A stretch of 64,000 bases of DNA, taken from Psammoneis japonica (Eukaryota). This document shows, piece by piece, positions 2,906-61,088 of the stretch. The stretch's first letter is position 1; the number at the start of each line of letters is the position of its first letter. The stretch is taken from assembly GCA_008632985.1 (NCBI GenBank), contig QPGO01000072.1, forward strand, positions 62,001-126,000. The letters are read 5' to 3'. Under the pieces are notes generated by a model. That model did no database searches, was not told the DNA's origin, and saw nothing but the letters and a program-made list of their open reading frames with translations. Position numbers and translations under genes: made by a program.

Positions 2906-3071
2906 TGTTTGAGCACGAGTTTAATGAGAGAAGGATAATAGAGCAACTCCGGTGTCGTACAATCGCTACCCCTTCGTGACAACACTTGCACAAAGGCAAA
3001 CAACAGCAACAACAACACGAGCGAGTAGGGGCCTAGCGAGTTTAGTTTTGGAGGGAGTTTTGCGTTCTCCC

Positions 3072-3256
3072 TGACGTGTCTTGCATCTGACGTAGAAGCT
3101 ACGGTGTCTCCTGGTACAAGATGGGAGAGGCGAACGTCACCATGATGTCAATCGCCAAGAAGGACATACGTCATCGCGTCCGTAGAGGATGATTTCAGAG
3201 AATATGATTGGCTGATCGCCAACACGTCAGGGCTTCCTTTATTTCGGCGATGACGT
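3072..3256. promoter_or_regulatory. Cluster of six TGACGT/ACGTCA bZIP (aureochrome-type) motifs upstream of DsbA paralog 1
   Basis: Motifs at 3072, 3088, 3134, 3168, 3224 and 3251, within 185 bp. Confidence 0.45.
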
Positions 3257-3479
3257 CGGAGTCGCCGGACACATCAACGCGCGCCGCGAATGCGCATGCT
3301 ACATCCCGCTCTCAGCTGCGTCGCCATCTTGTCCTCGACTTTTGCACCGTGCATCAAAGAGACATGCAGAGAATCCTTTCAACCAACAGGCTGGTTTCAG
3401 CAAGAAATGCACCACATTGACACGTTCTTCATGTCACACATAATGTCCACTTGACATTGTCAGTTGGTGAAACACTTCT

Positions 3480-6400
3480 CTGCAGTTGCGCCAAAAAACA
3501 AAAAAAAAGTTGTCAAGAACAGCCATGCAGCATCATGAGTGGGTCTGGAGGTTGTGCCACCTGAGGTTGAAAGCAGTTGTTGTTTTGCAAACTGTGCATG
3601 TGTGTGCCATGTCATTGATTTGAACATGTTTTGGGCAGGCTTGTTTTGTTGACAACCCCAGGAGCACTCTTCTTGTTGCAATTGCTGGCTGGCACTTGTG
3701 CAAAATGTGGCACGACAAAGATGCTTTTGATCTGGTGGGGCGTTGGAGCAACAAGCTGGGCTCCATTCTCCATCCCACATGGGATGGTGCTGACTCATCT
3801 GGCTGGGTGAATTTTGTGACTGCTGAGGCAGGGTGAGCAGAGCACACTGTCATGCACAATGCTTGTGCAAGCATTGTTTTGACAAAGCCGCGCACCTTGG
3901 AGCACGACCTCTTTGCTGCCACTTGTCTGAGAGCTTGGCAGCTGTTGCCTGCAGTGTGGCTTTGACTTTTTGCCATTTGCTGACCAGTCTGTCACAGGAC
4001 ACCACATTTGGAGCAAAGCGAGACACCATTGCTCAAGATCCCAAGCCTTGAGATGCTCTCACTTCTTCTCCTTTTCATGAGATTCCATGGATTTCTCTGG
4101 GTCACAGCTTGGCATCCATGTCCGCCACTTGAGGAGCATTGCATGTGGTGCCAGCCCATCTTTCTCACCAACCACACACCACCTGAGTGTTGCCCTCGCC
4201 ATGCCATCTTTTGACCTCCTGAGGTTTCTGGTGGCAACTTTGTCTGTTGAGATCTTTGTGTCATGGCTGCAGCTGGGGGGCTGATTGGAGGTTTTCCACA
4301 CATCAAAGAGAGCTTGGCAGATTTGCCGAAAAGTCAGCAAGCTCATCACAAACTCCATCAGGCCACGACCAGGCCACTTTTTTACATTCCAGTGCATGCA
4401 ACACACAGCACAAAAAAATTTGCCAACACCCAGCACACCACACTCTTCCAGCAGCCACATGTGGAGAGAGCATGTCATGGAATTCTCAACGTGCGCTGGC
4501 CCTGTGCATTGTTTGTGATCACAAAGTTCGCACTTTTCTCGCTGTCGTCTGTTGAGCTCTTTGTGTCATGGCTGCTGGGGGGGCTGATCAGAGGTTTTCC
4601 ACACATCAAAGAGAGCTTGGTGGATTTGCCAAAAAGTCAGCAAGCTCATCACAAACCCCGTCAGGCCATGACCAGGCCACTTTCATGCACTCCACCATTG
4701 CGTGTGCCGCGTGGCACAAAAAACCTTTTCCCACATCCAGCATCACACTTTTTCAGCAGCCACATGCAGAGAGCATGTCATGGAATTCTCAGTGTGTGCT
4801 GGCCCTGTGCATTGTTTGTGATCACAAAGTTTGCACTTTTTTCATTGTCGTCTGTTGAGCTCTTTGTGTCATGGCTGCTGGGGGGGGGGGGGGGCTGATT
4901 GGAGGTTTTCCACACATCAAAGAGAGCTTGGTGGATTTGCCAAAAAGTCAGCAAGCTCATCACAAACCCCATCAGGCCATGACCAGGCCACTTTTTTTAC
5001 ATTCCAGTGCATGCGCACTGCATGGCACAAAAAAATTTTACCCACATCCAGCACCACACTCTTCCAGCACATGTGGAGAGCATGCCATGGAATTCTCAAT
5101 GTGCGCTGGCCCTGTGCATCATTTGAGATCACAAAGTTTGCACTTGCTTGTGATTTTCTTGTCCTCTAGAACAGAGTTGACTTGCCTTCCTTCTTGGTGG
5201 TGTTTTGGCAAACCACCGCCACATGACCACACAGGAGCAAGTCAACTGTGTGAGCAATCATGACGAGAGTGCTCAGTTGACAGCTTTCTGAGCAGACTCT
5301 GAGGGACAAGAAGGGAGACAGAAAGTCCCACGCTGCATCCAATGGGGGGCGGACAGAGGGTGATCCTGGGGTCATCTTGGCCTGGCCGCGAGTCATCCAA
5401 AAGTGCAGGCAGGAAATGACGCATGTGATCACTTCCTTTGCAATGGCAAACGAGTCTCTGCAGTCACTTGCCATGCACATTGGGCACATTGCCACTCATG
5501 CTGCAAAGAGTTCTTTTGCATCCCTGTGCCCCCTTCTTGGAGACTTCTCATCCACCCCCTGCTTCCAAAATTCCATTTCTTTCCCGCCGACAAAACCAGC
5601 AAGGTGTCTTCTTCTTCCAGCGGCAACAGCAAAACCAAGTTCACTGAAGCAATGCTTTGCTGCCTCCAGTCAAGTTGTGGCTTGTGACAGCCAAGATGTT
5701 CTTCTTTTTGCTGTTGGTTGGAAAACACCCTGCTCATTGACCTGGCTCTCTCACACGTGTGCAGAAAAAATCATGGAGATTCTTCAAACCTTCCAGTGGC
5801 TGCCAAGTTCATGGGGAGCAAAGACATCAGGGCCTGCAAGCAGCCACAACAAGCAGCAAGTGGGAGGAATGCCATGCCAAAGAGCCCTTGGGCTGCTGGA
5901 GTGCTTCAGCACTTGCAGCAGTTGAGCACAAGCCAGGCACATGCTGGGGGGGGGGGGGGGGCAGACACATGGTGTCTGATGCTGCGGGGTGCTGGGGTCC
6001 TGTTTGCTTCATTGAAGCAGTTGAAGGCATCAATGAAGAGGAGCCCAAATGCATCTTCATGTTTGATCTGTTTCCAAAGCAGGTTCTCACGGCATTGTGA
6101 ACTCCTCTTTTGGCGCCTTCTTTCAAGACAAGCACAAAGCCAGTCAGCTCCGCAAGCATCTTTGGCTTCCGAGCCAGTGCATCAAGCGACCATCACAGGG
6201 CTTTGGCTGTGATCCACTGCACCAGACATTGCCAACACTGCTGACCAGATGAACAACTGGATTTCGTGGTGGAATTTGAGTGGGTGTTTGGTCCTGAGAA
6301 GAAGAGTGATGCTGCACATGGCAAGCGGGGCCAAGCGGAGAATCCATTTGCAGCCCAGTCAGCGAATCTCCCAAGTGCCTCTCTTGGGAGTCCACTGGAG

Positions 6401-6480
6401 TCTCCATGAGACTGAGGAGCCACAAAGTGCACATGGAAAAATGCAGCATTGCACAGTCTTGTGAGGAGCGATTGCATCAC
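3480..6480 (-). mobile_element. Degenerate CRE-clade-like non-LTR retrotransposon (RT plus restriction-like endonuclease), TpA/CpG-depleted
   Basis: Minus-strand fragments: GLLFIDAFNCFNEANR and PACAWLVLNCCK (~6050-5910; cf. RT LIDAxNAFNExNR...PSGARFxFNCY); GMQKNSLQHEWQ and FLPALL (~5530-5400); DPEKSMESHEKEKK, FAPNVVSCD, LSDKW and KVRGFVK (~4105-3870; C-terminal endonuclease region). Many stops and frameshifts. Confidence 0.65.
4245..5143. repeat. Three tandem copies of a ~303-305 bp unit inside the non-LTR relic
   Basis: ctgttgag(a/c)tctttgtgtcatggctgc...ggttttccacacatcaaagagagcttgg...acaaagtt(c/t)gcact recurs at ~4245, ~4550 and ~4852. Confidence 0.9.
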
Positions 6481-7318
6481 GAGATGTCTCGTGTTGACGC
6501 AGTTGAAGCATCTGCTTTGTTAGTCTACTGGGCCCTACACGGCAAAGCACGCACGCGAAAACGAACTGCCACAAAAATTTGAAATCCATGCGTGTTGAAC
6601 TCGAAAAATTAACGGTATTGCCATAATGCATTTGTGCATGAATATGTCAATAATTCTTATGGCTAATACTGGGGATTCATAGACGTTTTTTTTTTTCAAC
6701 TGCCGTGGACACCCATCCTCTCCAAGCTTGGGGGGCGACTTTGGAAGTGAGATCGTCGAAGGCGGTCTGATCGCCAGTGCGTTTGGGGGTTTTCCCAGTA
6801 CAATTTGTACGCACAAGAAGACACGTAGGATCTGTCCAGAGGTCCCAAATACCAATCGCACTGATTGACAGACTGTTTTAGTACAAATTCTACGTAACTT
6901 TCTTCGACAGTCTCACTTCCGAAGACGTCCCAAGCTCGCAAGCGGAGACTGGAGATCTGAGATTTGAGAATGAACAATGAACAGAAGGAATGAAGAGTGG
7001 CAGCAAGTTTCAACAAAGTTGCACCATCGAACGACTGAATTAATGTGAACCCTTCGCATTGGTGTCACCCGTTCCATTGGTGTGCGACTCTTTAGAGTAG
7101 GGGTAGCTAAGTAAATCACAAATCACAATCTTTGGGGATTCTCACCTCTTGGTTGCATCGCGCGATCTTTACACAACTCCATCATCTATTACGGTTTCAT
7201 CAGTGAGTAGCAACCGGATTCTTTCTTTCTTCTTACGTACCCAAAACAAGCAAAAGCCTTGTTTTCCAAACCGCTGCTGCTAATGTAATGATTTGCTTCT
7301 CCTCCTTTCGTCTTGCAG

Positions 7319-12529: not shown

Positions 12530-13483
12530 TCAGTGGATTGATGCATGTTTTATACGCAAGAAGCGCAATGACGTCGACACACCCGACATGACAGACTTCC
12601 CGTGCTGTTGTCGCAATGAGTGAAATCTTGTTGTGTTCGGTGCGCAGAGTCTAGTGCTGTTTGTCCGCATGTAGACGAGCACTGTGCACCGCACTTTTGG
12701 AAAGTGCACCACTCCATTCTCTGCAAAGAATGCTTCCATGCGGGCAATGTCCTTCTGTTCCTCGGTGAGGCTGTCTGCCAGCGCCTTTCTCTCCGATTCT
12801 TCCTTCTTTGCTGCCTTTTCGGCCTTCTTTTTCTTCTTTTTCGCTCGAAACTTGCACGTCATTTTGTGAATCTGCCAATGTTGTTTTTGACAGTGTTCGG
12901 AACAATGCGTCACTTCCTGGCAAGGGCAACGCAACTTTCAACGGCTGTGCGGGCAACCAGCTTTCCCATCCATGACGCAAACCTTCTTGCTGACATGGAC
13001 ACCGTTGTTCCATTGCCATTCCTTGGTGATCTCATCAAACTCCTCGTCTCTCAGCACACGTCCAAGTGCATTTCTCTTCCGTTGAAATTGATTGGGGAGC
13101 AAAAAGTCCATCATGCAAATGTCACATTCTTCCTTGGAATGACCAGCGCAGACAATGGTTTCATCCGGCAGTTCCTTCGTTCCTGTCGTCGAAGCATCGC
13201 CCGTGCTGCTCAAGATCTCTCCAGAAAACTTGTCGCGGCAAGGATGACACATGGCCTTGTCTCCCTTGCTCCATTGACAGACATCAAATTCAATTCGTGG
13301 CTTTCGCACATGGCACTTGCCGCAGACGTGGAACTTGGCTTGCGAGTGCTTGGTGCATTCTCCACAGAGGCGGCAGAAAGGATTGGGTTTCTTCCACTGT
13401 TTTGCGGCAAACTCATCCTTGGTGAACTCCTTTTCACACTGAATGCAGGTCTTTGTCCTGGCCTGCTGCTGGTTTGAGCTCAT
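12530..13483 (-). pseudogene. Stc1-like zinc finger plus MYND zinc finger gene, hypermutated
   Basis: KTCIQCEKEFTKDEFAAKQWKK...CRLC; CGKCHVRKPRIEFDVCQWSKG...CHPC; MYND-like CPCQEVTHCSEHCQKQHWQIHKMTC (YCS->HCS). In-frame TGA at 12940-12938, probably from CGA. Confidence 0.7.
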
Positions 13484-13899
13484 GGCAAGTCTGTTGACAT
13501 GCGATGACTCCCATTCTTTGTGTCTGGATCTTGATCCATGCAAAGAAAAGTGTCGATCTTTTGTTGCTCTTGTCCCTTTCATGTGCACCAACTTTTCTCT
13601 TTCCTGCACCAACTGTGCACATTTGTGAGAACAAAAAAACTGCGCGCCGCACTGCATGATGCTGTGTGCCCATGACCTTGAGACAATTCCACGTGGATGT
13701 GTGAATGAACGCCGCAGCCACCCACAGCCTTGAACGGACCGAATGCCAATGGCAATCTTGTTGCAACTCGTCCCCCGCCTGACAAGGCAGCAGCAGCAGC
13801 TGTAATTTTGAGAAAGCGAGCAACATGCACCGTGCTCCAATGGCTGCTGTCCCTCCTCCTGTTGCTCCTGGTGGGGCTGGAGCACCTCTCCAGCAGTTC

Positions 13900-16800
13900 C
13901 AGCAGCAGCACCACCCCCAATGAAGACCTGTCAAGACTCAAGACAGGTGGGTGACCGAGAGGATGGCAATCATTTGGGCGGCCAATGTGCCAACCCACTG
14001 AATCAGTTCTCCACAGCTGGGACAGCTTGCTTGTCCCAAGTGGATTTGTTTGAACACCTCTTGGCCTCCAGCAGCAACGTTGCACACCAAAGGTGCTCTC
14101 CAGCCAGCCTTGGTCTGCCGTCAACAATGGTGGGTGCTGCTGACTGCCAAGTTGCACAACTCCTCCATCACCCCTCTGTGCATGTTCATGACCCAGTGAC
14201 CACATCACCTTGGGATGGTGGGTTGTTCTGTTTCCAAGGCAACACGCACCTGGGAAACTTGCCAACATTCTGAGGTTCCCGGTCGACCCCTTTGGCACCA
14301 TTGTGGGCACTCAAGTCGCACCCACAGCAGCCAAGTGACATGGCCACCTTGGAGGGGGCTTGCTCATGCCTGCACAAACCAATGGTGCTGCCAATGTGAA
14401 AACTGTCCAGGTCCATTGCATGGTGGTGCAAGAAGCACCCCACACCTGCGTGCATCTTGTGCTCAACCGGTGTGACCTCACCCCGTTGCAAGCATGTGGC
14501 AGGAAGGAGCAGCGGGAGCTGTTCATGATGACAGCTGAGCCACCAGAGATGTGGAGCTGCTTGTCAACTGGCTGTGCATCCTTCAGATCTGGCACATTGC
14601 CTTGGCAATCAAGCCACAGCACATTTCCTCCACTGGCAGTGGACACCACAGTGCCATGTGCAACACTGACTGCATGCTGGCATTTTCCAATGTTGTCCCC
14701 AAGCTCTGCATTTGTGGGCCACAACAGTGCAAAAGCAGAGCAGTGCATCTGCTTTGCTTGCATGTTGAAAAAGCGCAAGCACAAGAACCAGATGCAGCTG
14801 CCTGCGTGGCACCCATCATGTCCAAGGAACTCTTTGAGATGGCCTTTCAAGGGAATGTGGCACCCCACATTCACCAACCATGGGTGTTTCTCCCTTTCAC
14901 TGCTTGTGGCTTCTTCATGGGAGACAAGGGGTCCACAATCCAAGTGAGGGCTGAGCAGACCTTGCACCCTCCATTTTGCAGAACAAGAGCAGCTCTGCAC
15001 TGAGGACATGCCTTTGCCAACCACCACCTGCGCCACTCTGTGGCAGCATGTTGCAAGGCATGAGCATTGTCCTTGATGCCATTCAAGGAACCAACATCTG
15101 TGTGCAGTGGTCTGTTGCAACTTCTGCACCAATGACTGGCATGACATTGTTGATTTGCTTTTGAGCAGTCTGGCACCCTGGTGTCCAAAGGGAATGTGTG
15201 CTGCTGCACATCTGCCATGAGATCCAAATCATGATGGGCGTGTGTGTTTGTGCACTCCCACATGTCCTGGAGCATTCAGTGGTGGCTGCCAAGGTGTTGT
15301 GCCATCAGTTTTTGCTGCTCACACACTTGCAGCACCATCCAATTAGCCTGGGCAGCACCAAGACCATGGGTGTGACCCACATGCAGGCAGAGACTGATGG
15401 CAGTGCTGATGGACATGGAGCTCCAGGTGGTGGTCCACAACATGATCCTGGTGCCACCGCAACAAACTCATCACCTGTGCAGACTTGGTTGAATGCTTTC
15501 ACCCTGGCAAAAGTGTGTTTGGCAACCATCAGGTGCTTTGCTTCTAAAACTGCTGACAGTGCCAGAGCCACCATGTGCAAAACTGTGCCTCTCCCACCAC
15601 TCAAAAGGGACATGCTTCTGAGCACTGCAGCACACATCACAGTCTTGCTTGCACTCTGTGAACACACAGACATGAGCACCTTTGTGCACACACACTTGCC
15701 AAACCCACAAGAAGGTGGAGGTGCAGCACCAGCTCCAGCGCTGGCAGCACAGGCCACCTGAGATGTTGGGTGGGTGAGACATTGGACCCACCTGCAGCCC
15801 TCAGCTGCTGATGCACCTGATCCAGGCTGCACCAGCAGCATCCGCTGAGTGACAAACCATGTGAGTTGGCAGCTGAGAATGATGCACTCTTGCAGAAGTT
15901 GGGCTGGACCCAGTTCATGAGTTGCTTTTGCACAGGGAACCTTGTCTGGTGGAATTGGCTGGTGATCTGCCACACCCAGCCACTGGGCCATTGCAAAGCC
16001 TCTGCAACAATGGAGCACCAGTCTCCAATTCAGTGCTGACAACTGGATGACCACCAGCATGATTGAGAAGGCTGTCAACCAAGGCAGCTGTTCATCTGCA
16101 AGAGACCATCTGGGACTCCTTGAAGAAGATGGAATGACCAACATGATCTGCCATTGCTGCTGGGTGGTGCTCCCACATGAGACCGCCAAGCACCTTCCAC
16201 ACCTCCAAATCTCACCCATGGATGTGGTTCCCCACCAATGAGAATGTGGTGACCATGCACCATCGTCTGTCTCAACAATGAAATTGTCAAGCTGCCACCA
16301 CCAAAGCATGCAGTTCAGATGACCACTTGAACAAGTCCTCTGCCAGATCTTCCAAGCAGATCCCACGTTCAGTCTGGCACACATGACAAAGCTCGACCCA
16401 TGTGATGGCTTTTGCCAGGCAGGTTTGTGCCCACATGACATCCCAAAGCTTGGTGTGGCAGCCCCAGTTGGGCCTGGAGAGGATCCTCTTGTCTCACCAA
16501 ACCCAGTGCATCCAATGGCTTGGACCAAAAGCCCACACGGTGGACCTGGCCAATCCCCATGCCAGCCCACCCAGGAAGTGACAGCCTCCACAAAGCAGCA
16601 CCACCATCTGAGAGCATTTGCATTGATGATCCTTGTCTGAACCATCAAGTGCAGACTGCCACCTGGACCAGCTGCCTGATCAACAAACTGTGCACAGCAA
16701 GTGGTGGCGGGGACCACACACTCTGTCCAAGCAACATCACACATTTTCCAGCAAGGAAGCAAAGTGCACCTCAACCATCTCTGGTGGTGCTTGTTCTACA

Positions 16801-17370
16801 TCAACAGCTGGGTGTGCTGACCAAACACCACCAAGGACCAGCCCAGGCATCATGGAGCCATGTCCTTGAACAAGCTCTTCAAGGGCAACAACACCTCGTG
16901 GTCCACGATCAAATCTGTCCTGGAATGGATCATCAACTCCCTTGCTGGCGCCATCTAACTGCTGCCACCACACTGCCAAGAGCGCCTCCTTGTCCATCCT
17001 CAACACCTCCACCAAGTTCCCAAGCAGCATTGGCGGCATTGGCCATTTCAGCTGAAAGGGAGAAGGACAGATGCCACAGCTGCCAACAGCCTCTTGAATG
17101 GGCCAAATGCCAGGCACAGCATTCTTGTTGCAACTCGTCACCACCTGATGAGGACACAGCAGCAGTTGTAATTTTGAACCCCCTCTCTCCCTCCCTGGGC
17201 TGCCTGGCAGCAGTTCTGGGCCAACTGGGGAGTTTGTCACCCCAGCAAAGCCTGAAGCCACCAAAACCGCCACCACATGCTGCAGACAAAGTGGAGCCAA
17301 CTCCCTTGGTGGCATCAGCTCTGCACAGCACCTCCTGCAGCCACATCATTCACCTCTCAGAGAATTGAGT
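13900..17370 (+). mobile_element. Degenerate DIRS/Ngaro-like retrotransposon (gag-like region plus RT), TpA/CpG-depleted
   Basis: RT remnants WVVLPHETAKHLPHLQISPMDVVP, SMQF, ADPTFSLAHMTKLDPCDGFCQ...DIPKLGVAAP...GEDPLV...PMAWTKSP, and ICIDD in place of VYVDD (~16050-16630). Gag-like PHTCVHLVLNRCDLTPLQA at ~14440. Boundaries are approximate and no tyrosine recombinase was confidently seen. Confidence 0.7.
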
Positions 17371-19600
17371 GCATCATCTTTTGTGCATGAATGTCATTCA
17401 ACATTTCACATCCTGTCGCCCATTGCCGCAATGCCCTCACTGTGCTCATGGAAGGTGTTCACAGTTCATTTTTGGGGGGTCAATTTTTCTGGTGCAAATT
17501 TGTCATAGCTCCTGCGACTGTGCTTTGCCGTGCAATGATGATGCACCAAACACATCAACCTGGGACATCACAACATCTCGCATTGCAAACACTCTTCAAG
17601 ACTGTGCATTGCTGCTTTTCTCCATTTGCTGCACGTCGTTCTGCTCACGATTTTTTCTCTGCAATTCCCTGCGGTGGTGGTTTTGGGTCATTGAAACACA
17701 TCAAATGCTTGCTGGTTGTTGCATGAGTCGCCAGCTGTTGTGATGGCACTTTGTTTGCCCAGCAGATTCACTGCAGTTCTCCAGCAATTCAAGAAGAGTT
17801 GTGTTAGACTCAAGCACAGGGGGGCTTTCACCAGAATCTTGAGTCAGCTGGATGACATCATCTTGCAGGGTGTCATTTCCATTGTGCACCAATCACCATT
17901 TTCTGCTGTCTCACATGGACTCAACACTTTCATGTGCATTGTGCACCAGCTGGAGGCTGCTGGCCTGCATTGGACAGAAACTTGCGCATCTCAGATTCAT
18001 CTTTGTCATGCACCGAACCAGATGTAGACTCACACATGCAAGGGACACACAAGAGATGGTCTCCCTCCAAGTCGTCCAGATCTGACTCCTTCATCTGGCA
18101 GAATGGACAGAGTTTGGCTTTGCAATTGTGCACTCATCAACTCCTTCAGCAGCAAGAAATGAGTGAGGTGTCTCTGTGGTGGGCCCATCAACAATGCTTG
18201 CATCTTCATCTGTGCAAATGTCTCCAAATGTTTTTCAAGCATTGGTGGCCACTCATGAACACATCCCGTTTTGGTCTTTTCACAAAGCATTGCACATGCC
18301 AGGCAGGATGGAATCTTTGTTTTTGATGGCACTGCCACTGGCTTTGCTGATCTCAGTTGCCAAAGCCTCATGCAGTTCCAGATCTGGTGGGTTTTGATGC
18401 TTTGCTGGAAGGTCTGCAGCTGCCTTTGGGCCACAACCTGTGACCCCCCCAGGATGCACGTCACAACCGAGCATCAGCGCTGACAACACACATGTCATTG
18501 GATGTTGTGCCCTGCTGAACACTGGGCAATTGGGAATGTGTCCTTTGTTTGTTGGAAGAAATGGGCACCTCTCCAATTTTGGACAGAGCATTTTGCCAAG
18601 AAGATCTGCAACTGGTTTTTGACCCATGTGTGTTCTGAACGAACGAATCTGTTGCTGCTCGAGTCTCATGGCAATTTTGATGTCTTTTGCCATGACATCA
18701 GCAAGTTCTCCATTCAATTTCCCACTTTGGCCAACATGCATGACGAAGTCAGAATTGCCCAAGACAATGAATTGCACATCCCCATCTGCTGTCATCTTCA
18801 CAATCCACGGATCTGCTTGAGTCGGGGCTGTTTCAATGCTGATGTTCCCCTTTCCAGCTGAATCACATTCTTCAACAAATTTTTCCAGCTTTGCAGAGAA
18901 GTCAGGTGGCAGTTGCTGATGCTTTGTGCAGTTCTTAAGACTTCGAATCTTCTTCTACACTCAACTGATTTGGGCAGCATGCTCGATCGTGTTGCACTGT
19001 TGTTGCGCAAGGAGCGACTGCAATTCTGTTCTCACAGCAATGAGCCAAATGCTCTTCTTCTCTGCATCAGCCTGTCTGAAACAAGATGTCCACTTTGATG
19101 GATGCCTGTTTGCTGGGTGGTTGCAGATGACATGCATGTCAATCAAAGACTCGGAGCAGGCACGAGCAATGTGCTGTGCTGCACCATGATCTGGCGCAAA
19201 CATGATGGCCGATCGTGCACGTGTTTGTGGCAAAGAAGGTTGGCATCAATGACTCCTTTTAACCGTCTTTGCTCGGGTTGCTGTGTGGCATCACCGACTT
19301 GTTGCTCAGCAGACATGCCACTTGATGGTTGACAAGACTGCTCCAGTGCCACACGTTCCAATGCATGAGTTCCGACATCGAAAATGGCAGCTCTTCCGTC
19401 TGCCAAGAGCACTTATCTTGACCACTTGTTCCCATTGTTGTGAAAAGAGCTGGAAGATGTTTTGAAGGTGACGCTCGTATTGAAGGTGTCGCTTGCGTTA
19501 ACTGCGTTGCCGAGCCGTTCGTTGACCGTCCAAGTCATTGCAGACCTCAAACCGGTGCGGTGCGATGCACATCATGATGCGACGGATGCGGCATGGCTGT
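17370..19600. mobile_element. Unidentified degenerate coding-like sequence continuing the TpA-depleted block
   Basis: Same dinucleotide signature with fragmented ORFs (e.g. 18280..18801 minus); no recognisable domain. Confidence 0.35.
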
Positions 19601-29763: not shown

Positions 29764-32700
29764 TCAAATGGAGCTGGCTGCGGTTTCAATGGCCAAACTC
29801 ACATATTCGTCCACCAAACTAAAATCACTCTGAAGTAGCTTTCCGAGTATTTCGGCACTTTCTTTGTCGTTCGTTGCACGTAGCCTTGCCTTCAACTCGT
29901 TCAAAACAAGCTGCGCGCCAGTCTTGGAATTTACTGCCAAAGTATTAATGGCGAGCCGTTTCACATCAAGAAGGTCCTTGCTGACTTTAGACGGATCTAC
30001 AAACAGGGCTCTCACAAACTCTTTCGTGATGCTACCTTCCATGTCTGCCATGTCAACTCGCATCATCTCGATGATCAGAACTAACAAATGAAACGTCACG
30101 GGTTCTGCACAAGTCCCACAACGTGTTGGCGTGAACGGAACTTCGGATTTGACGGATCCCAAGTCCAACAACGCATCATGTTGTAGCCTTACCCACGCGT
30201 CAATTCTTCGTCGAATTTCGTAGCATTCCCGCTCCGCCTCGCGCATTAGCCGGTACAGACGAGCGCACTCTTCCGACAGTTTCTTAGGCGATTGTTCTTC
30301 ATCCTTTTCCTTACCACCACCGCTATTGCCGCTCCCCCCACCACCTCCTCCTTCCCCGGCACCACCATCTTCGGCATCACCAACTCTTCCACTTTGTCCT
30401 CGAGACCGGGATTGAATACTAGCTACCAAACGACTGAGAGAATCCGAAGAGTCGAGTGGTAGGACGTCCACTCCATCAGCGCCGCTGAAGAAACCAAGCA
30501 CGTCCCCGTCCTCTTCCATATCTTCCACAAGCAGACCTGTGCTGCTAGAATTCAATAGCGTTTGGCGAAGCAACAAGTCACCACTTCTTCGATCAGAATC
30601 GCTCCCACGTAGTTGACGGGCCAAGCGAATCAAAGATCGTGCTCTGTTTGCAGACGAACCGCGACTGCCAGACGACGGACGTCGCGATGCGATTGACGCA
30701 ACGGCCGATTCTCGTACACCACTGCCGCTCCGCCCGCTTCTTCCTTCACCCCCCTTTCCGCCGGTAGAAGGTGGAGGCTTCCCAAGAAAGGCACGTTTTA
30801 GCGATGGCCCGTGCGAAGAGAGAGCCTCAAACTCTTCGAAATCTCCCCAACGAGGGCGTTTCTTCGTTCCACAAGACAAAACCTTTTCCTTCAGCTTTGA
30901 CCGGAGATCACCATGCAGTTTTGTCGCAACGCGCAAGATTTTTGTCGCTCTCGCATATGAATCCTCATCAACAACAGCCACGGCATTCGAAGCAATGCCC
31001 GCGGTAAGTTCATAGTCAAAGCCTCCGCAGGAGCAATAGCCGCATTCAACACACAAGAAGGCATCCAAACGGTCGTAATTGATATGTCGACATTTCCTGC
31101 ATTGAAAAGCAACTTCTCCACAGTTTCCGCACACTCCGTGAGCATTCGTGACAAGCCTCGTACACCTCGGACAATGGAGTACAAGCGAGCCGTCTGAGGA
31201 CCTACTCGTGCTCCCCGGCCTGTCGTGGAACTCCAAATATTCAAATTTCAAGTTTGCAGCTACAACGGGCTCAGGCAGAGTACAGGAAAAACGAGAAGCA
31301 CCGCGTGATAGAGTAAGCGTAGCGCATCGCTGCCACATGGAAGAATACTCCTCACTCTTGAGAGTGTTGACGTCGACAACTTGCCGCGGCGTGAAGTAAA
31401 CAGCAATGGTTTTGACGTATCGAGCACGTGGATCGGTTACCGTCAGGTGAATATTTGACACCGCAAGTCGGTACTTTAGCTGGACAAAGTTCGAAAAATC
31501 CGTGCTCACTGTCGCATCGGTCGATGACTCCAGGCTGCCTCGAACGAAGGGTTTGACCTGGTCGGGAAGCCACGGTGTTTCAATCGGTTGGTCGCGCGAG
31601 GTGCCGTGTTCGCAATGATCGGCGTCTTGAGACTCTTTCGGCAAAGAGTCTGACAGTGATTGTCTATGGCAATAGCTACAACATGCCAGATTGAATCGAG
31701 TCTCTGACGATTCGCCATCCGCAGTTTTCGTTTCTAGAACGACGAAGTCCTCTCCCACACCACCGCTCGAATCTTGGTATAATGTTTGCATCTGCAGAGT
31801 GAAACTTCGGATGATTTTGTTGGCAGCGCGTTGTAGCGCCTGGGATCCTTTACAGCGACGAACGAGGGTTTGGACAAAATCCAGAAATTCAACAGAACTC
31901 TCTCCTATTGCGCTGATTTCACCGAGAGGCGTATCGACCATTTTGTCCAGCAGCGAAGTCGAATCTTCCGGCGACAAATTTTCACACAGCCTCTCTGCCA
32001 CTTGACTGACCACTTTGCGAAGCTCGTGCGTTCTGCCTTTGAGGACAAACTGGACGACGAGGGCGTGAATTTCTTCAACATTTAGACCTCTTTGGCCACC
32101 AAGTATAGCGTCTTCTGGCTTAGCGTTGGTGTCGCCGTTGTAGAAAGGGTTTGTCTGTGCAATCCCAACAGTGGCAACCTCGCTTTCGAGTCCACCATCG
32201 GAACTCAACCCTTCCCCGCCGTCCTGAAAAGCATCGTCGATCCAATCGTCCGGAGGATTCAAAGCATTTTCAAGAAGCGTAAACGCTTTTATCTGATTTG
32301 AGCCCGTCAGCGAGCATGCCACCCAGAGAAGGGATACCATGGGAGGGCAAGAAGCAGTTACATTGACCTCCTGAGACGTCTCGTCCTCTGTCGATTTTAC
32401 CGAACTTTTTTGTCCTCCGGCAGAAACCACTGAGAGAAACTGTCGCCAATTTTTACATCGGCTGCGGGCTACTTCAAGTAACTCATCTAGCACCGCTGAT
32501 ATCTTCTTACTTGATTCAACAGCGACACAACCTTCGGAAAGCAAGTCTTGAGTCCCAATCAAGCCGCCAGCTCGCAGGTTCGTCCAAGCAACCCGCTCAG
32601 CTTTTTTCCAGCTAGTACCGCAGCGTCTGGCTTGCTCTTTCCTGACGATAGCTTCCTCTAAACAGCCAAGGGAGCACTTGATGAGGTTGTCATACTCAAA

Positions 32701-35700
32701 CCCAAATACGTAGTGATCCCGTACATTTTGATAAACCGCCCGTCGCATACCACAAAACCGTTTCAATGCGTTTTTGGCTAGCAAGCGAAAAGGACTCGAT
32801 GAACCAGGGCTGATGATCTGACATAACAGGGAAAACCAATTTAGAATAGATTCGTCGTTCGGGACCACTTGGGTAGAGTCCTCCGCAACGAGAGAGAACA
32901 ATTCAAGCACAGCGTCAATTGATGACCCTTCGCCTTTCGGCAACTCCACTGGTTCGCTCGAGTGTGTGTGGTCATGCGGTCCTTGTCCAGGCTTACGTCT
33001 CCGGGAAAAGGCAGGGCTATTGGAATATGACAGTTTCTCCTTGCTGCAGAAAACGCCATCTTTCAGGTCATTGTAGGCAGCCTCGCTGTCATACTCACTG
33101 TCTAATCGAGCAATTCCACCAACTTTGGCGTCGCCTGTAGATTTCACCTCCGAAGGGCGACACACTTGTGGCTCGCGCGAAACCTCGAAGCTGGAGAACT
33201 CTCTTGCTAGAAAGTCGCATAGTTGAGCGTGGAGGGGCACGGAGCCAGGCAGAAGAGGGGCGGTGAGTAACTTCCAAATGAATTGGGGCATCTCGGCCAC
33301 ATACAACATGTTTGGATCCGAAGCGTCGTCTAAGCCAGCATCATCAAGGTCTGCCCACTTGAAGTAGTTGCATCGCGACTTTCTCTCCAAACCGCAGACA
33401 TAAAACCTTCGATTTTTGTTGACACCACTGGAGCATCTACGTCTCACTGCCGGAACACCATGAGCTTCACAAACAAACCTTGGATCTGTCTTTTCTTTTG
33501 ATCTCTCTGGTACACCGACATGGCTTTCACATGGCGCGAGATTGTCAGGAAATGCGATTTTGTCAGAGATTGATGATAGATCGTTTTTCTGGCGGACAAG
33601 GCAAATAAGGCACCGCAGGCACACCACAAGATCCATTATCGTCTGCCCCGAAGCCTTGCCATGGGTCTCGCCACCGCCGCATGATCGCAACAGTTCTGAT
33701 ACTTTGGCTGCCAGTTTCTTTGCAAATCGCTTTCCTCTCTCAAGTTTTATCTCATCCAGATCAGAACTAACTATCACACCAAGGACCATCTGAAAGATGG
33801 GCACGGATTTTGTCACAGCTTCTTTACTGTTCGAGGGAAACACGACATTAAGGATTTTCGTGAAGATCATGTCGTTGAAAGTACCTCGTCGTGACAATTG
33901 AGCGTCGACCTCAACTTGTTCGTCCATTGGTAGCAGGCCTGTCTGACTATTAGAGATCCCCCCAATTGCTTGCCGAGCCTGTTCCACCTGCTCTTGGATG
34001 TTCCCCGCGATAGAAACTGGCTGCATTTGCTTTATTTGTGCGCAGGTTAGGCTCGACCCTGTCCCTAGTCTCAAGGTCCTTCCACGTATCAAAACTTCAG
34101 TTCCCGAATCATAGCCATGTAGAGACGAGATTTGATCCCCAATCTGAAAGCATTGCGCACAAAGGTCGATGTCATGACCACCTTCAAGAAGCGTGAAGCG
34201 CTTATCCGTGATAGGAAACAACGAGCAACTGTCGCATTTATATGCAATGGGGGCAGAAGATTCGTCTCTATCCACCGGGGTTGGCGAGTTACGGCGGTGC
34301 AACGCTTCGTCGTCAGTACGTGCTTCCCGCAAGAAAGACAACATCGACGTGCAGGCGCTTTCCACTACTGTCAAATCGTCATCTTGCAGTAGCCTCGATA
34401 GGATCTCAAAATCAGCGAATCCCTCGGTGCTATCACCTCCCGACTTCCACGGCACTGACATTTCGGCAAGTATCAGTTTGACCAGGCATGGAACAACAAC
34501 CCTGCAATCCACGAAAGAATTTCTTCCGCTTTCCACCAGCTTCCACGCATTTATCGCCAGAGATAAGGAGGACGGGTCATCGGTAAATATCTTTAGGATT
34601 GACCGCAAATATATTTGAGGATGCTGCGTCGCAATTCTGGTGCCAATAGTACAGCAGTCAGTCAGCACAGTTTCTACTTGCGACCATGCATCAGCGAGGG
34701 GCGAACGAGCTTCCGAATCGCTTGAACCGACGTGTTCATCGGTAGATAATTTGGATTCGAAAGCTACTTGAGCACGATTCAAAGCCCGCGACAAGCCGAA
34801 AATTATGTTCTCGTCCAAAAAAACTTGGCGCCTGCCTGGGTCGTCTTCAACAGCTTCAAACAGACCCACCACGCCATCCCAGACATCTCGGTTCTCCTTG
34901 GAAGTCGTTGCCGTAGCGTGAATTATTCGACTCAATGTCTTTTTGCATGCCACAATGTCGGAATCATCTTTTTCAAGGAAGTTGCATGCATTTGTTGCAG
35001 CGGCGATACTCAGAACTAGAGCTCGCTGAGCATCTGGCTGTTTCATCTCGATTCCTAAGTTCTCCTTTGTCTGCTGAACCACTTTTTCGTTTTCAGATTC
35101 CAGTCCTTTCGGGAGCCATGAATCAATATACTTCCTCTCCGTCACGTACACTTCTACAGCATCAACTATCGGACTATTCCCGCTCTCGGACGAGCGGCCA
35201 ATACCAAGCGACACAAATCCGTTCCGAATCGACAGCGCCACCTCCTCGTGCGATAGAGGTAGGTCGTACCAACGCTTGGACTCGGCCTTCAGCTCAACTA
35301 TTCGACCCTCGACCATCAATTTTCTGGGAATAAAATCAGATCTCTTCGACCCAACCAGCACCCTGAGCGCAACAATTGCGTAGCGTTCTTGGTCCACGAC
35401 TTCCGATTCATGCGTTTCCCGGGGAATATGCTGTCCGAAACTGCACTCGGCTTCGTGATTTCGCAGGCGGCGGGGGAGTGAGATTGTGATTGTGCATCCC
35501 TCCTGTGAAGGCGCCATAAAAAATGCGCTGCTCTTAGTGGATAGCTTAGATTTTACCCCTCGAGAGTCAGAACCAACCCCGTCCGTACTGAAAGACAGTT
35601 CGTCCCAGTCGCTTGCATTGATCAATTTTTCGAAGACGGTCAAAGGAAAGCACGGCTTTGCATCCTGAGAAAGCGGGGCGCTGCTCGGTTGGTTAGAATC

Positions 35701-52759: not shown

Positions 52760-53755
52760 TAAAACTTCAAGGCAAATCAGTACATTCAGACATGAAGATT
52801 TTGTAAACGCAAGCCGTGACCGTTTTTCCAAGATTGATGCTTCTTGAAGTTGAGAGACAGTGGCTGGTCTGTGGCCGGCACCCCCTTGTGTGAGCGCGGG
52901 GGTGCTGGACCTGTGTGCGGGGCCAAGCTCTGCTCTTTTGCACAATTGTTTGACAGCACACCCCATTGTACAAGCCAAAAAATGAGTTTCATTGTGGCTG
53001 TTTCTGAAAACAGAGTTGGGCTGAGATGTTTGAAAAAGGTGCCTTTGAGCAAACACTCTCTGGAGATGACTCGCACACTTCAAGCAGTCATGACAGGGGG
53101 GGCACGCCACTTCTCAAGTCAGTTGGAAAATTGCATTTTTCTGTGAGAGGCTGCCAGCTTGTTTGTTGCCCAAGAAACAGCTCTTTTGCTGCAGAGCTTG
53201 GCGCGCACTGCATTTTGCAGGCTGAACATTGCACGTGCTGTTGCATGTGGGGGGCTGGAGCACATGGTCACTTTTGTGGTTTTTGCCAGCTGCTGGTTGT
53301 TGCTGCTTGGGCACAGCGTGCCAGAGCGTGAGCTGGGGGGGTGTCGCGGGCACCTCCTTGGCATGACTGTTGGGTGCCCAACTTGCTGTTGTTGCGTGCA
53401 GGATGTCTTGGACTCCATTGTGCAAGAAGGGAAGTTGTGTGGGCAGGGCGGGGGACAACAAGCTGGCGGAGACTGGCTTTTCAGAGCAACAACCCAGCCA
53501 AACACTCTTTGATGTTCCCACAAACAATCATGGAGAGTTTTGCACATTGTGGCACTGACCATGTCTTTGTGCAGTGCAAAACATGTTTGGCAGACATCAG
53601 CCAGCAGAACCAGAGCTGGTCTTGTTGTGAAAACAAAAAAGGCTCCTCTCCACACTCCACACAGTGTTACTCCACAGCTCTTTGCTGCGAAAGTGGGTGA
53701 AGTGTGAACAACAACAATGACTTCCAGACAGAATTTGGCTTTCCAAAAAGTTGTT

Positions 53756-53795
<40 letters not shown>

Positions 53796-53950
53796 GCCCA
53801 TTGGGGCATCACGACCAGATGGCTGTGAGAGCTGTTGTGACAAAAAATGAGACACACCCTTCCACGAATTGAACTTGCGGGCGCTGGCCAGACGACGGGG
53901 TCTGGAGGTCTTGCGTGATGCGATGATTCGCGTGATTGATTGAGTGCATG
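52760..53950. mobile_element. Unidentified TpA-depleted repeat relic directly upstream of the UBR4 C-terminal gene
   Basis: No TA between 52971 and 53667, with CA/TG excess; no intact ORF or recognisable domain. Confidence 0.45.
53757..53794. repeat. (CT)n microsatellite
   Basis: About 19 CT units. Confidence 0.95.
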
Positions 53951-53964: not shown

Positions 53965-54075
53965 TGTGTCAATAAGTAAACACACGCGCGTAGCCATCAT
54001 ACTGACCCCTACGTGACACAGAATTTGGGAGAGACACACAAAAAACTCACAACGAGCGACGCACAACACTACACC

Positions 54076-61037: not shown

Positions 61038-61088
61038 NNNNNNNNNNNNNNNNNNNNNNNNNNNNNNNNNNNNNNNNNNNNNNNNNNN
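61038..61088. other. Assembly gap (51 N)
   Basis: Run of N. Confidence 1.

What the first reader, a model, noticed from the sequence alone, without database searches (positions are those of the whole stretch)
3443..6520. Second TpA-free block, in an unrelated element class (CRE-like LINE)
Seen: no TA at 3443-4382 or 5169-6520. Motif changes NCY->NCC and KYL->EHL are consistent with Tyr loss. Inference: the same signature in a non-LTR element and in a DIRS-like element argues for a host process rather than an element-specific RT bias.
Basis: partly seen in the sequence, partly recalled or inferred. Interest (0 to 1): 0.7.

Follow-up and report, generated by a model that had tools for sequence, protein, structure and literature searches.

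The report
TA-erased mobile-DNA relic in a diatom
A 3-kb stretch of dead, probably transposon-derived DNA in a diatom genome has had nearly every TA step and most CG steps rewritten to CA or TG on both strands, the footprint of a DNA-mutating process reported so far only once, in an unrelated alga.

Summary
Window 3443-4382 and 5169-6520 contain no TA. The whole 3,078-bp block keeps 4 TAs where about 103 are expected (P about 1e-38). CG is also down to about a quarter, and CA plus TG rise by exactly the amount lost. The change is strand-symmetric (CA 358, TG 329). Three internal tandem copies turned the same ancestral steps into CA in one copy and TG in another (6 sites, 0.34 expected). A neighbouring high-copy inverted-repeat MITE, which needs no reverse transcriptase, varies among its copies only at TpA for A:T>G:C changes (7 of 7). 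The label "CRE-like LINE" is not verified. Pfam, HMMER against 1.84 billion proteins, PDB and word searches are blank, and only a language-model lead points to a reverse transcriptase. The host is a diatom. The same signature was shown experimentally in Bigelowiella natans (bioRxiv 10.64898/2026.01.13.699255). This scan had already noted it on other DNA of this genome. This block is a further, saturated instance.

The parts
3350..3442 (.). Probable left margin of the converted tract
   Evidence: The CpG-rich flank ends at 3348. From 3349 to 3442 there is one CG (3423) and one TA (3441), and the CA+TG share of pyrimidine-purine steps rises from 0.45 (3200-3299) through 0.75 to 0.90. A TA-free gap of this length is not unusual by itself, since the background has gaps up to 290.
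3443..4235 (.). TA-free left part, unclassified sequence
   Evidence: 0 TA, 11.3 CG per kb, CA 104.7 and TG 132.4 per kb. No meaningful Pfam hit in the three minus frames at E<=10: only chance-level ZZ finger (E 0.024) and DUF3619 (E 0.05), both below their cut-offs. None in six frames at E<=1.
4236..5168 (.). Tandem array of three copies of about 305 bp, holding the 4 surviving TAs (4383, 4998, 5039, 5167)
   Evidence: Self-BLAST gives 85-86.5% identity between copies; alignment A1. Six dinucleotides read CA in one copy and TG in another, one of them with CG kept in the third copy. The simulated expectation is 0.34, with a maximum of 3 in 20,000 runs. One column reads TA/TG/TA directly.
5169..6520 (-). 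TA-free right part with a weak reverse-transcriptase-like relic on the minus strand
   Evidence: 0 TA in 1,352 bp, CG 19.2 per kb, CA 149 vs TG 134. Motif-like strings were read by eye in the minus frames and compared only with recalled RT motifs. There is no profile support.
5909..6181 (-). Stop-free 91-aa ORF carrying the RT motif-A-like string (..LLFIDAFNCFNEANR..)
   Evidence: ESM Atlas: 25 of 30 named hits are clusters in which PF00078 RVT_1 occurs (on 17-43% of members in the three rows shown). Best score 0.92, 145 of 256 features shared, recognition 2856. The tool's own caveats make this a lead only. Pfam, PDB and HMMER searches covering it are blank.
6729..6931 (.). Unconverted copy of a high-copy TIR-MITE beside the block (not part of the block, but the control for non-retro elements)
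   Evidence: Inverted arms 6732-6761 / 6902-6931, 30 nt, 83% complementary. Family similarity starts at 6729 and stops at 6931 (loose ends). AAGCT lies on both flanks (6724-6728, 6932-6936). Summed word depth reaches 15,284 against about 60 for single-copy DNA. This copy keeps 8 TA (o/e 0.61) and 13 CG (o/e 1.06).
12672..19260 (.).
   Evidence: TA 1.8, CG 17.6, CA 119.1 and TG 112.0 per kb. No Pfam family in six frames at E<=0.1. No similarity to 3443-6520 above shuffled controls after purine/pyrimidine recoding.
52969..53668 (.). Third, short TA-free tract
   Evidence: TA-free gap of 699 bp. 100-bp profile shows 0 TA from 53000 to 53599 with CA and TG high.

Best explanation
The block is a dead piece of mobile or foreign DNA lying between two diatom genes. 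It is composite: a weak reverse-transcriptase-like relic on the minus strand, a 3 x 305-bp tandem array, and 0.8 kb of unclassified sequence. While it sat in the chromosome, two transition processes aimed at the two self-complementary pyrimidine-purine steps rewrote it. (1) A TpA-directed A:T>G:C mutator changed TA into TG (hit on one strand) or CA (hit on the other). One hit destroys the site on both strands, so the process runs to saturation and leaves a TA-free fossil. (2) Ordinary decay of methylated CpG changed CG into TG or CA. Shown here: the saturation, the exact mass balance, the strand symmetry, the in-place divergence of the tandem copies, the sharp right edge, and the same TA-specific spectrum in a non-retro MITE family. 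Inferred: the two processes coincide because the tract was silenced, methylated chromatin. Also inferred: the TpA chemistry is adenine deamination to inosine by an ADAT2/TadA-type deaminase acting on DNA, whose natural tRNA substrate is also a U-A step. I put the in-genome host process at about 0.7 and the deaminase identity at about 0.35.
For: Saturation: 4 TAs observed against 102.6 expected. Mass balance per kb, block minus background: TA -35.1, CG -44.7, CA +43.2, TG +36.2. Total pyrimidine-purine steps are 240.4 vs 240.9. Symmetry: CA 358 vs TG 329, with no strand-coherent runs outside the tandem array (z +0.78 and -0.25 in the two flanking parts). In-place conversion: 6 CA-vs-TG dinucleotides among the tandem copies against 0.34 expected, plus a direct TA/TG/TA column. 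Non-retro control: 16 variant places are listed in the MITE. All 7 A:T>G:C changes fall on TpA, touching 6 of its 8 TAs, where only 16 of 103 A/T sites are in TpA (P = 5.8e-7). Four more are CpG transitions, and the majority state is TA, which gives the direction. Genes are spared: TA o/e is 0.38-0.87 and CG o/e about 1 in the 1-kb windows lying wholly outside the three blocks (background 0.552 and 1.031). Precedent: mutation-accumulation lines of Bigelowiella natans gained 230 of 231 A>G/T>C changes, all on TpA, in integrated viral DNA, and RT and DDE Pfams were enriched among TpA-depleted CDS (bioRxiv 10.64898/2026.01.13.699255; abstract, passages, sections 11-12 read). Diatom retrotransposons are cytosine-methylated, by preliminary data in a CpG context (PMC2806351, passages). 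The host is a diatom: 12 of 12 organism-bearing names among the best 120 Nudix homologues are diatom genera, with best identity 60%.
Against: The block is single copy today. Word depth is 37.8-89 in 25 of 26 bins from 3000 to 6483 and 186 in one, against 62 in the flank. There is therefore no unmutated sister copy, and the ancestral state of the block itself is inferred, not seen. CA/TG that came from TA cannot be told apart from CA/TG that came from CG, so the symmetry figure mixes both processes. 16 of the 39 transitions among the tandem copies are outside a pyrimidine-purine context, so ordinary divergence also contributed. The MITE copy 208 bp from the tract is untouched despite its high copy number, so repeat number alone does not explain targeting. 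No enzyme, no methylation data and no RNA data were available, because no whole genome is held. The read set that confirms the sequence may be the assembly's own. The mobile-element origin of the block rests on a weak lead.
Confidence: 0.7

Rival explanations
1. Editing before integration. The element's RNA or first-strand cDNA was hyper-edited (ADAR-like A>I on RNA, or a deaminase on cDNA) or miscopied by its own reverse transcriptase, and the edited copy then integrated.
For: The tract's right edge is sharp, with 3 TAs within 16 bp after 1,354 TA-free bases, as expected if a pre-mutated element was inserted. An RT-like relic may be present. ADAR usually favours a U upstream of the edited A (as stated in the preprint's discussion).
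Against: Both outcomes occur on the same strand in near-equal numbers (CA 149 vs TG 134 in the RT-like part), whereas sense-strand editing gives only one. The tract also covers a tandem array and unclassified DNA. Tandem copies were hit independently on either strand. A TIR-MITE family shows the same TA-specific changes. In B. natans the changes arise in chromosomal DNA during culture.
Confidence: 0.06
2. Same host process, different chemistry. The thymine of TpA is enzymatically modified (for example oxidised by a TET/JBP-type enzyme to 5-hydroxymethyl- or 5-formyl-uracil) and mispairs with G, giving T>C instead of A>G.
For: Sequence alone cannot tell T>C on one strand from A>G on the other. 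All the data fit both. That modified thymines can mispair is recalled knowledge, not tested here.
Against: No evidence here for thymine modification in diatoms. The only published proposal for this signature is adenine deamination by an ADAT2 homologue. An ADAT/TadA enzyme has a built-in U-A context, which explains the strict TpA rule without extra assumptions (recalled knowledge of tRNA position 33-34).
Confidence: 0.1
3. Error-prone repair. T:G mismatches from 5-methylcytosine deamination recruit non-canonical mismatch repair, and a polymerase-eta-like enzyme resynthesises the patch and makes A>G errors at nearby A:T pairs.
For: TA loss and CG loss coincide in the same tracts, so a causal link between them is conceivable. 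The polymerase-eta WA-motif spectrum is recalled from the somatic-hypermutation literature, not from a call.
Against: That spectrum includes AA as well as TA. Here 7 of 7 A:T>G:C variants in the MITE are at TpA and none at ApA. AA and TT are not erased in the block: AA 61.4 vs 75.9 per kb, TT 86.7 vs 79.3. TA loss is more complete (3.6% left) than CG loss (26% left), which is hard to explain if CG decay were the trigger. None of the passages or sections of the B. natans preprint that I read mentions CpG.
Confidence: 0.07
4. Native composition or selection. The sequence never had TA, for example as a satellite-like or horizontally acquired sequence with its own dinucleotide bias, or under selection against TA-targeting transposons or nucleases.
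For: No unmutated relative of the block was found, so the ancestral state is not directly seen.
Against: The exact mass balance with the host background is what conversion predicts and would be a coincidence otherwise. The tandem copies show TA vs TG and CA vs TG at homologous positions. MITE copies show majority TA and minority CA/TG. Three mutually unrelated sequences in one window share the bias.
Confidence: 0.03
5. Artefact. Base modifications in silenced DNA cause systematic base-calling or polishing errors that read TA and CG as CA/TG.
For: The library type of the confirming run is not on record and it may be the assembly's own data.
Against: Contigs of 31-letter words at depth 50-62 reproduce the block with 4 differing letters and one 8-base homopolymer difference, all inside the tandem array. 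The pattern changes amino-acid-level signal so far that no profile recognises the relic. The same signature was validated by resequencing in B. natans.
Confidence: 0.02

Closest known systems
TpA-restricted hypermutation of integrated giant-virus and virophage DNA in Bigelowiella natans (Mettrop et al., bioRxiv 10.64898/2026.01.13.699255; abstract, passages and sections 11-12 read)
   Same: TA>TG / TA>CA only, on either strand. TpA depletion is coupled to CpA+TpG enrichment in clustered 1-kb windows. Targets are foreign or mobile DNA (RT and DDE Pfams enriched among TpA-depleted CDS) while ordinary genes are spared. Many depleted sequences are too degraded to annotate.
   Different: The host is a diatom (Stramenopila), not a chlorarachniophyte (Rhizaria). 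Here the tract is saturated (3.6% of expected TA left), whereas the B. natans NCLDV region still has 3.3% TpA dinucleotides, only 1.8-fold below its genome. Here CpG is lost in the same tract, which none of the passages or sections I read reports for B. natans. Here the evidence is a fossil pattern, not observed de novo mutation. A MITE family is also affected.
Repeat-induced point mutation (RIP) of Neurospora and other ascomycetes (PMC7296669 and PMC2621366: search listing and abstract starts only)
   Same: Dense, dinucleotide-specific transition mutation confined to mobile or repeated DNA, with sharp edges, which destroys coding capacity.
   Different: The chemistry and direction are opposite. 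RIP makes C:G>T:A, mostly CpA>TpA, and so enriches TA. Here TA is erased and CA/TG gained. The block is single copy now, and a roughly hundred-fold repeated MITE copy beside it is untouched, so a repeat trigger is not shown.
CpG decay by deamination of 5-methylcytosine in methylated transposons (diatom TE methylation: PMC2806351, passages)
   Same: CG observed/expected of 0.22-0.24 with matching CA/TG gain inside the tract and about 1.0 outside.
   Different: It explains only about 56% of the CA/TG gain (44.7 of 79.8 per kb). It cannot remove TA.
ADAR or APOBEC editing footprints in retroelements of animals (PMC4866542: listing only; ADAR context as stated in the preprint)
   Same: Deaminase-type clustered transitions in mobile elements, with an upstream U/T favoured for ADAR.
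   Different: Those act on RNA or on cDNA before integration, are strand-polarised and limited to retroelements. Here the pattern is strand-symmetric, extends over a tandem array and is seen in a TIR-MITE family.
CRE-clade and other restriction-like-endonuclease non-LTR retrotransposons
   Same: On the minus strand, strings that resemble RT motifs follow each other in the right order when read by eye, and one ORF has an RVT_1 lead.
   Different: No RT, endonuclease or zinc-knuckle profile match, no homologue, no spliced-leader or other RNA gene at the site. Clade not testable here.

Membership tests
TpA hypermutation of foreign DNA (as defined in bioRxiv 10.64898/2026.01.13.699255) | [quoted passage not shown] | tested here: met
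   Windows 3001-4000, 4001-5000 and 5001-6000 have TA o/e 0.20, 0.03 and 0.04, CA o/e 1.76, 2.06 and 1.82, and TG o/e 1.58, 1.51 and 1.64. Thresholds are quoted.
TpA hypermutation of foreign DNA | A:T>G:C changes fall only on TpA, giving TpG or CpA depending on the strand | tested here: met
   MITE family: 7 of 7 A:T>G:C variant places are on TpA (P = 5.8e-7). Tandem copies: TA/TG column and 6 CA-vs-TG dinucleotides. For the block itself this is inferred from mass balance.
TpA hypermutation of foreign DNA | Targets are integrated foreign or mobile DNA; host genes are spared | tested here: inconclusive
   Genes are spared. The mobile origin of the block rests on an RVT_1 lead for one ORF against blank profile and homology searches. 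The MITE is clearly mobile.
TpA hypermutation of foreign DNA | Mutations arise de novo in chromosomal DNA during culture | not testable with these tools
   Needs mutation-accumulation or resequencing data from this diatom. Only one sample's contigs were available.
Repeat-induced point mutation (RIP) | C:G>T:A transitions, chiefly CpA>TpA, so TpA rises and CpA/TpG fall | tested here: not met
   The opposite holds: TA 1.3 vs 36.4 per kb, CA 116.3 vs 73.1, TG 106.9 vs 70.7.
Repeat-induced point mutation (RIP) | Acts on duplicated sequence | tested here: inconclusive
   The block is single copy today but could have been repeated when mutated. A high-copy MITE copy beside it is unconverted.
CRE-clade non-LTR retrotransposon | Reverse-transcriptase domain | tested here: inconclusive
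   Pfam RVT_1 is not found at E<=10. HMMER against 1.84 billion proteins gave 1 hit, a repetitive non-RT protein. ESM Atlas gave 25 of 30 hits in RVT_1-bearing clusters for ORF 5909-6181(-) and no usable hit for ORF 6196-6519(-).
CRE-clade non-LTR retrotransposon | C-terminal restriction-like endonuclease with zinc knuckle (feature recalled) | tested here: not met
   No Pfam family in the three minus frames of 5169-5620 at E<=10. The decay may hide it.
CRE-clade non-LTR retrotransposon | Placement of the RT within the CRE clade by phylogeny; site-specific insertion (spliced-leader genes in the founding members; recalled) | not testable with these tools
   No alignable RT and no reference RT set could be obtained. 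Rfam finds no RNA gene in the window.
ADAR-type RNA hyper-editing fixed by retrotransposition | A>G on the transcribed strand only; retroelements only | tested here: not met
   CA 149 vs TG 134 in the RT-like part. The same spectrum occurs in a TIR-MITE family.
Methylated-CpG decay | CpG depletion with matching TpG/CpA gain, confined to silenced DNA | tested here: met
   CG is 15.9 vs 60.6 per kb; o/e is 0.22-0.24 inside and 1.03 outside. Methylation itself was not measured.

The most novel reading that the evidence does not exclude
Diatoms and chlorarachniophytes share a natural, TpA-specific A:T>G:C editor of chromosomal DNA, most simply an ADAT2/TadA-type adenine deaminase recruited to silenced chromatin. 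It erases TA from any mobile or foreign DNA whatever its mode of transposition: RT-bearing relic, tandem array and TIR-MITE here, giant virus and virophage in B. natans. It works alongside CpG methylation. The unannotatable TA-free, CA/TG-rich 'dark matter' of these genomes is its fossil record.
Probability: 0.35. Interest if true: 0.9.

Novelty: new member of a known kind. Interest (0 to 1): 0.6.

Why it matters
If the reading is right, three things follow. (1) A mutational genome defence with the reverse chemistry of RIP is not a peculiarity of one chlorarachniophyte. It also operates in diatoms, a major group of marine primary producers, which makes a wider distribution in the SAR supergroup directly testable. 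(2) To my knowledge no natural adenine deaminase is established as a TpA-specific editor of chromosomal DNA; the preprint itself cites BjADAT2 of amphioxus as editing DNA, and the adenine base editors I recall were evolved from TadA. A natural TpA-specific editor would therefore interest enzymology and genome engineering. (3) There is a practical consequence. The process destroys protein signal so thoroughly that Pfam and HMMER against 1.84 billion proteins see nothing in this block. Transposon content of such genomes is therefore underestimated unless searches tolerate TA/CG>CA/TG conversion, for example by purine/pyrimidine-aware or ambiguity-aware profiles. This block adds a saturated example with exact mass balance, an internal tandem-repeat clock, and a non-retro MITE control a few hundred bases away.

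Tried and rejected
Classification of the relic:
- Pfam on all six frames of 3201-6802 with X at stops gave only chance-level hits (Gyro_capsid, DUF3619, Dscam_C; E 0.07-0.28).
- Pfam at E<=10 on eight shorter minus-strand pieces gave only ZZ (E 0.024) and DUF3619 (E 0.05).
- Word-indexed protein searches with 5429-6181(-), at near and longer lengths, scored nothing among 1,397 and 4,734 candidates.
- PDB sequences matched none at E<=10.
- HMMER of 5621-6088(-) against 1.84 billion representatives gave 1 protein (E 2.5e-5, 11 stretches). It is a repetitive 1,412-aa protein without RT, matching the Pro/Cys-rich part of the query, and I rejected it as spurious.
- The metagenome scan with the 91-aa ORF matched 277 pattern stretches. 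One locus (L001) was confirmed, and it lies in a bacterial-looking contig inside a membrane-protein ORF, so I rejected it.
- ESM Atlas gave no usable hit for ORF 6196-6519(-).

Other searches:
- Rfam found no family in the window.
- Pfam on six frames of the second block 12601-19301 found none at E<=0.1.
- No whole genome is held. Genome-wide spectra, sister copies and a search for deaminase genes were therefore impossible.
- Sequencing runs: no RNA holder listed. Runs X2 and X3 laid almost nothing on the block.
- No other copy of the block at 80% likeness or more appeared in run X1, so no before/after pair for the block itself.

Tests that gave nothing:
- A runs test for strand-coherent patches of CA vs TG found nothing outside the tandem array (z +0.78 and -0.25). 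The z of -3.74 inside it reflects the repeat's own periodic composition.
- Purine/pyrimidine-recoded BLAST of the block against the window gave a best score of 56 bits, against 56-70 for 20 shuffled queries, so no hidden homology.
- BLAST of the MITE against the window found no second copy.
- I did not search systematically for target-site duplications of the block.
- Earlier-notes look-ups by words and by place near the finding returned nothing.

Literature: four searches listed no paper other than the B. natans preprint that describes TpA-erasing hypermutation. None concerned diatoms. I judged this from titles and abstract starts only.

Full report
**Observation**

I read 3000-7000 and listed every TA in the window. 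Inside 3443-6520 the only TAs start at 4383, 4998, 5039 and 5167. The neighbours outside are at 3441 and 6521.

The 3,078-bp block would hold 186.0 TAs under base independence. It would hold 102.6 at the TA observed/expected ratio of the rest of the window (0.552, measured on 53,540 bp). Four are seen, Poisson P = 1.3e-38, and the longest TA-free gap in the background is 290 bp.

CA and TG are both raised 1.5- to 2-fold.

The book-keeping is exact. Per kb, TA falls by 35.1 and CG by 44.7, while CA rises by 43.2 and TG by 36.2. The sum of the four pyrimidine-purine steps is 240.4 in the block and 240.9 in the background. This is what conversion of TA and CG into CA/TG by single transitions predicts.

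**Is the sequence real?**

One public run (X1, coded; library not on record) holds 92% of the block's sampled words. Its contigs reproduce the block. The only differences are 4 letters and one 8-base difference in a G run, all inside the tandem array.

A 6,148-base contig runs from the left flank to 4317, and a 388-base contig crosses the right edge (6369-6756). Word depth is 37.8-89 in 25 of 26 bins between 3000 and 6483 (186 in the bin 6350-6483), the same as the flank at 62.2. So the block is single copy and its junctions are supported. The run may be the assembly's own data, however.

No copy at 80% likeness or more exists in that run, so the block has no less-mutated sister.

**Host**

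No whole genome is held. The window carries long intron-poor ORFs with ordinary eukaryotic domains: galactose-oxidase-like, TauE, Nudix, WASH CCDC53 and UBR4. For the Nudix ORF, all 12 organism-bearing names among the best 120 homologues are diatom genera (Cylindrotheca, Odontella, Seminavis, Thalassiosira, Entomoneis, Corethron, Attheya, Nitzschia). The best identity is 60%. This agrees with the earlier notes of this scan that call the genome a diatom.

**Anatomy**

The block lies between genes and has three parts.

- 3443-4235 is unclassified.
- 4236-5168 is a tandem array of three copies of about 305 bp, 85-86.5% identical. All four surviving TAs lie in it or at its edge. Three of them stand after a T run (TTTTAC).
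- 5169-6520 holds, on the minus strand, strings that I read by eye as a reverse-transcriptase motif chain. An example is ..LLFIDAFNCFNEANR.. in the stop-free ORF 5909-6181. I compared them only with recalled motifs.

The left margin is gradual. The CpG-rich flank ends at 3348, and one CG and one TA lie between there and 3442. The right edge is sharp, with TAs at 6521, 6526 and 6536 after 1,354 TA-free bases.

**Is it a CRE-like LINE?**

I could not confirm it.

- Pfam finds no RT, endonuclease or zinc-knuckle family in any frame, at E<=1 on whole frames or at E<=10 on eight shorter pieces.
- Two word-indexed protein searches, at near and longer lengths, find nothing.
- The PDB sequence search finds nothing.
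- HMMER against 1.84 billion representatives returns one protein. It is repetitive, lacks RT, and matches the Pro/Cys-rich segment, so it is spurious.
- A metagenome scan returns one spurious bacterial locus.

The only positive sign is the ESM Atlas. For ORF 5909-6181(-), 25 of 30 named hits are clusters in which RVT_1 occurs, with best score 0.92 and 145 of 256 features shared. By the tool's own figures, shuffled proteins reach 0.9 in 4-10 of 100 cases, so this is a lead. The upstream ORF 6196-6519(-) gave no usable hit.

An RT-bearing origin is therefore plausible, and the clade is untested. The cited motif changes add nothing. Without TA no frame can encode Tyr, and K>E is not a TpA change.

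**Host process or element-specific bias?**

Four results bear on this, and all point to a process acting on chromosomal DNA.

1. Strand symmetry. There are 358 CA against 329 TG in the block, and 149 against 134 in the RT-like part. Editing of a sense RNA or of one cDNA strand would give one product only.
2. In-place conversion. In the core of the alignment of the three tandem copies (284 ungapped columns), six dinucleotides read CA in one copy and TG in another. One of them keeps CG in the third copy. Throwing the same number of transitions at random gives 0.34 such sites on average and never more than 3 in 20,000 trials. Another column reads TA/TG/TA. The copies were therefore hit independently, on either strand, after the array existed. 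As a caveat, 16 of the 39 transitions among the copies lie outside a pyrimidine-purine context, so ordinary divergence is present too.
3. A non-retro control. A 203-bp element lies 208 bp right of the block, at 6729-6931. It has 30-nt inverted ends and AAGCT on both flanks. Its summed word depth reaches 15,284 against about 60 (depth is not an exact copy number). It is a MITE of a DNA-transposon type. Of the 16 places where other copies differ from this one at 5% or more, all 7 A:T>G:C changes fall on TpA, hitting 6 of its 8 TAs. Only 16 of its 103 A/T sites are in TpA, so P = 5.8e-7. Four more are CpG transitions and five are other changes. The majority state is TA, which fixes the direction as TA>CA/TG.
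4. Unrelated sequences share the signature. The window has two more TA-poor tracts, 12672-19260 and 52969-53668. After purine/pyrimidine recoding, which neutralises transitions, the block matches nothing in the window better than shuffled controls do (56 bits against 56-70).

It is not met.

**Mechanism**

What is shown is a saturating, strand-symmetric, TA-specific A:T>G:C conversion plus CpG decay. Both are confined to a tract of non-genic DNA, with the genes beside it untouched. TA is self-complementary, so a hit on either strand destroys the site for both. That explains the one-for-one mass balance and the run to completion: 3.6% of expected TA is left, against 26% of CG.

The CpG part is what methylated transposons are expected to show. 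Diatom retrotransposons are cytosine-methylated, and preliminary data place that methylation in a CpG context (PMC2806351, passages).

For the TpA part, I infer adenine deamination to inosine on DNA by an ADAT2/TadA-type enzyme. Its natural tRNA substrate is also a U-A step (positions 33-34; recalled). This is the hypothesis of the only paper that describes the signature. In mutation-accumulation lines of Bigelowiella natans, integrated giant-virus and virophage DNA gained 230 of 231 A>G/T>C changes, all on TpA, at about 1000 times the background rate and in some lines only. RT and DDE domains were enriched among TpA-depleted CDS, and an ADAT2 homologue was named as candidate.

Targeting is not explained by copy number. 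The block is single copy now, and the high-copy MITE copy beside it is untouched (TA o/e 0.61, CG o/e 1.06). Chromatin state, element length or time of insertion may decide. I could not test these.

**Rivals**

- Pre-integration RNA or cDNA editing is disfavoured by points 1-3 above.
- A polymerase-eta-type repair spectrum, triggered by T:G mismatches, should also hit ApA. None of the 7 MITE changes is at ApA, and AA/TT are not erased.
- Thymine modification at TpA giving T>C cannot be excluded from sequence.
- Native composition is contradicted by the mass balance and the TA-vs-TG/CA polymorphisms.
- A base-calling artefact is unlikely given the 31-mer contigs at depth 50-62, but wants an independent library.

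**Comparison and novelty**

The block works like the B. natans system and meets its published window criteria. It is the chemical reverse of fungal RIP, whose defining TpA gain is not met.

Four literature searches (titles and abstract starts) listed no other description and none for diatoms.

This scan had already recorded the same signature on other pieces of this genome: LTR pairs, MITE pairs and gene pseudocopies. This finding is therefore a further instance, not a discovery of its own.

What it adds is a saturated tract with exact mass balance, an internal tandem-array test of in-place conversion, a MITE control, and a demonstration that the decay defeats standard profile annotation.

I rate it a new member of a kind known from one preprint, interest 0.6.

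Noticed in passing
window 6729-6931: High-copy TIR-MITE: 30-nt inverted ends, AAGCT on both flanks, summed word depth up to 15,284 against about 60. This copy is unconverted although it lies 208 bp from a saturated tract. A minority of sister copies carry TA>CA/TG at 6 of its 8 TAs (5-33% of depth per site).
   Followed up: partly
window 12672-19260: Largest TA-poor block of the window (TA 1.8 per kb, CG 17.6 per kb). No transition-neutral similarity to 3443-6520.
   Followed up: partly
window 52969-53668: Short TA-free tract (699-bp gap) just upstream of the UBR4-like gene that starts near 53980. The ORF 53119-53808(-) inside it has no Pfam family.
   Followed up: no
window 4383, 4998, 5039, 5167: The four surviving TAs all lie in or at the edge of the tandem array. 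Three stand after a T run (TTTTAC), two of them at homologous positions of copies 1 and 3. Either they escaped by context or the TA was regenerated later.
   Followed up: no
window 4873-4890 and 5947-5962: Long G runs inside the block. The first differs by 8 bases between the assembly and the read-derived contig, so homopolymer lengths here are uncertain.
   Followed up: no
window 6350-6483: This bin has word depth 186 against 50-62 around it. Contigs join 4230>6368 and 6220>6354. A short piece here is probably repeated elsewhere. A 59-bp match (79.7%) to 17573-17629 on the opposite strand was seen.
   Followed up: no
window 29764-43808 (-) and 53980-59584 (+): Very long intron-poor ORFs. Those of 2,454, 184, 1,270 and 675 aa lie in a row on the minus strand, with GRF and UBR-box zinc fingers. 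A UBR4-like gene on the plus strand is split into three ORFs. Both have normal TA and CG content.
   Followed up: no
window 61038-61088: Run of 51 N (assembly gap).
   Followed up: no
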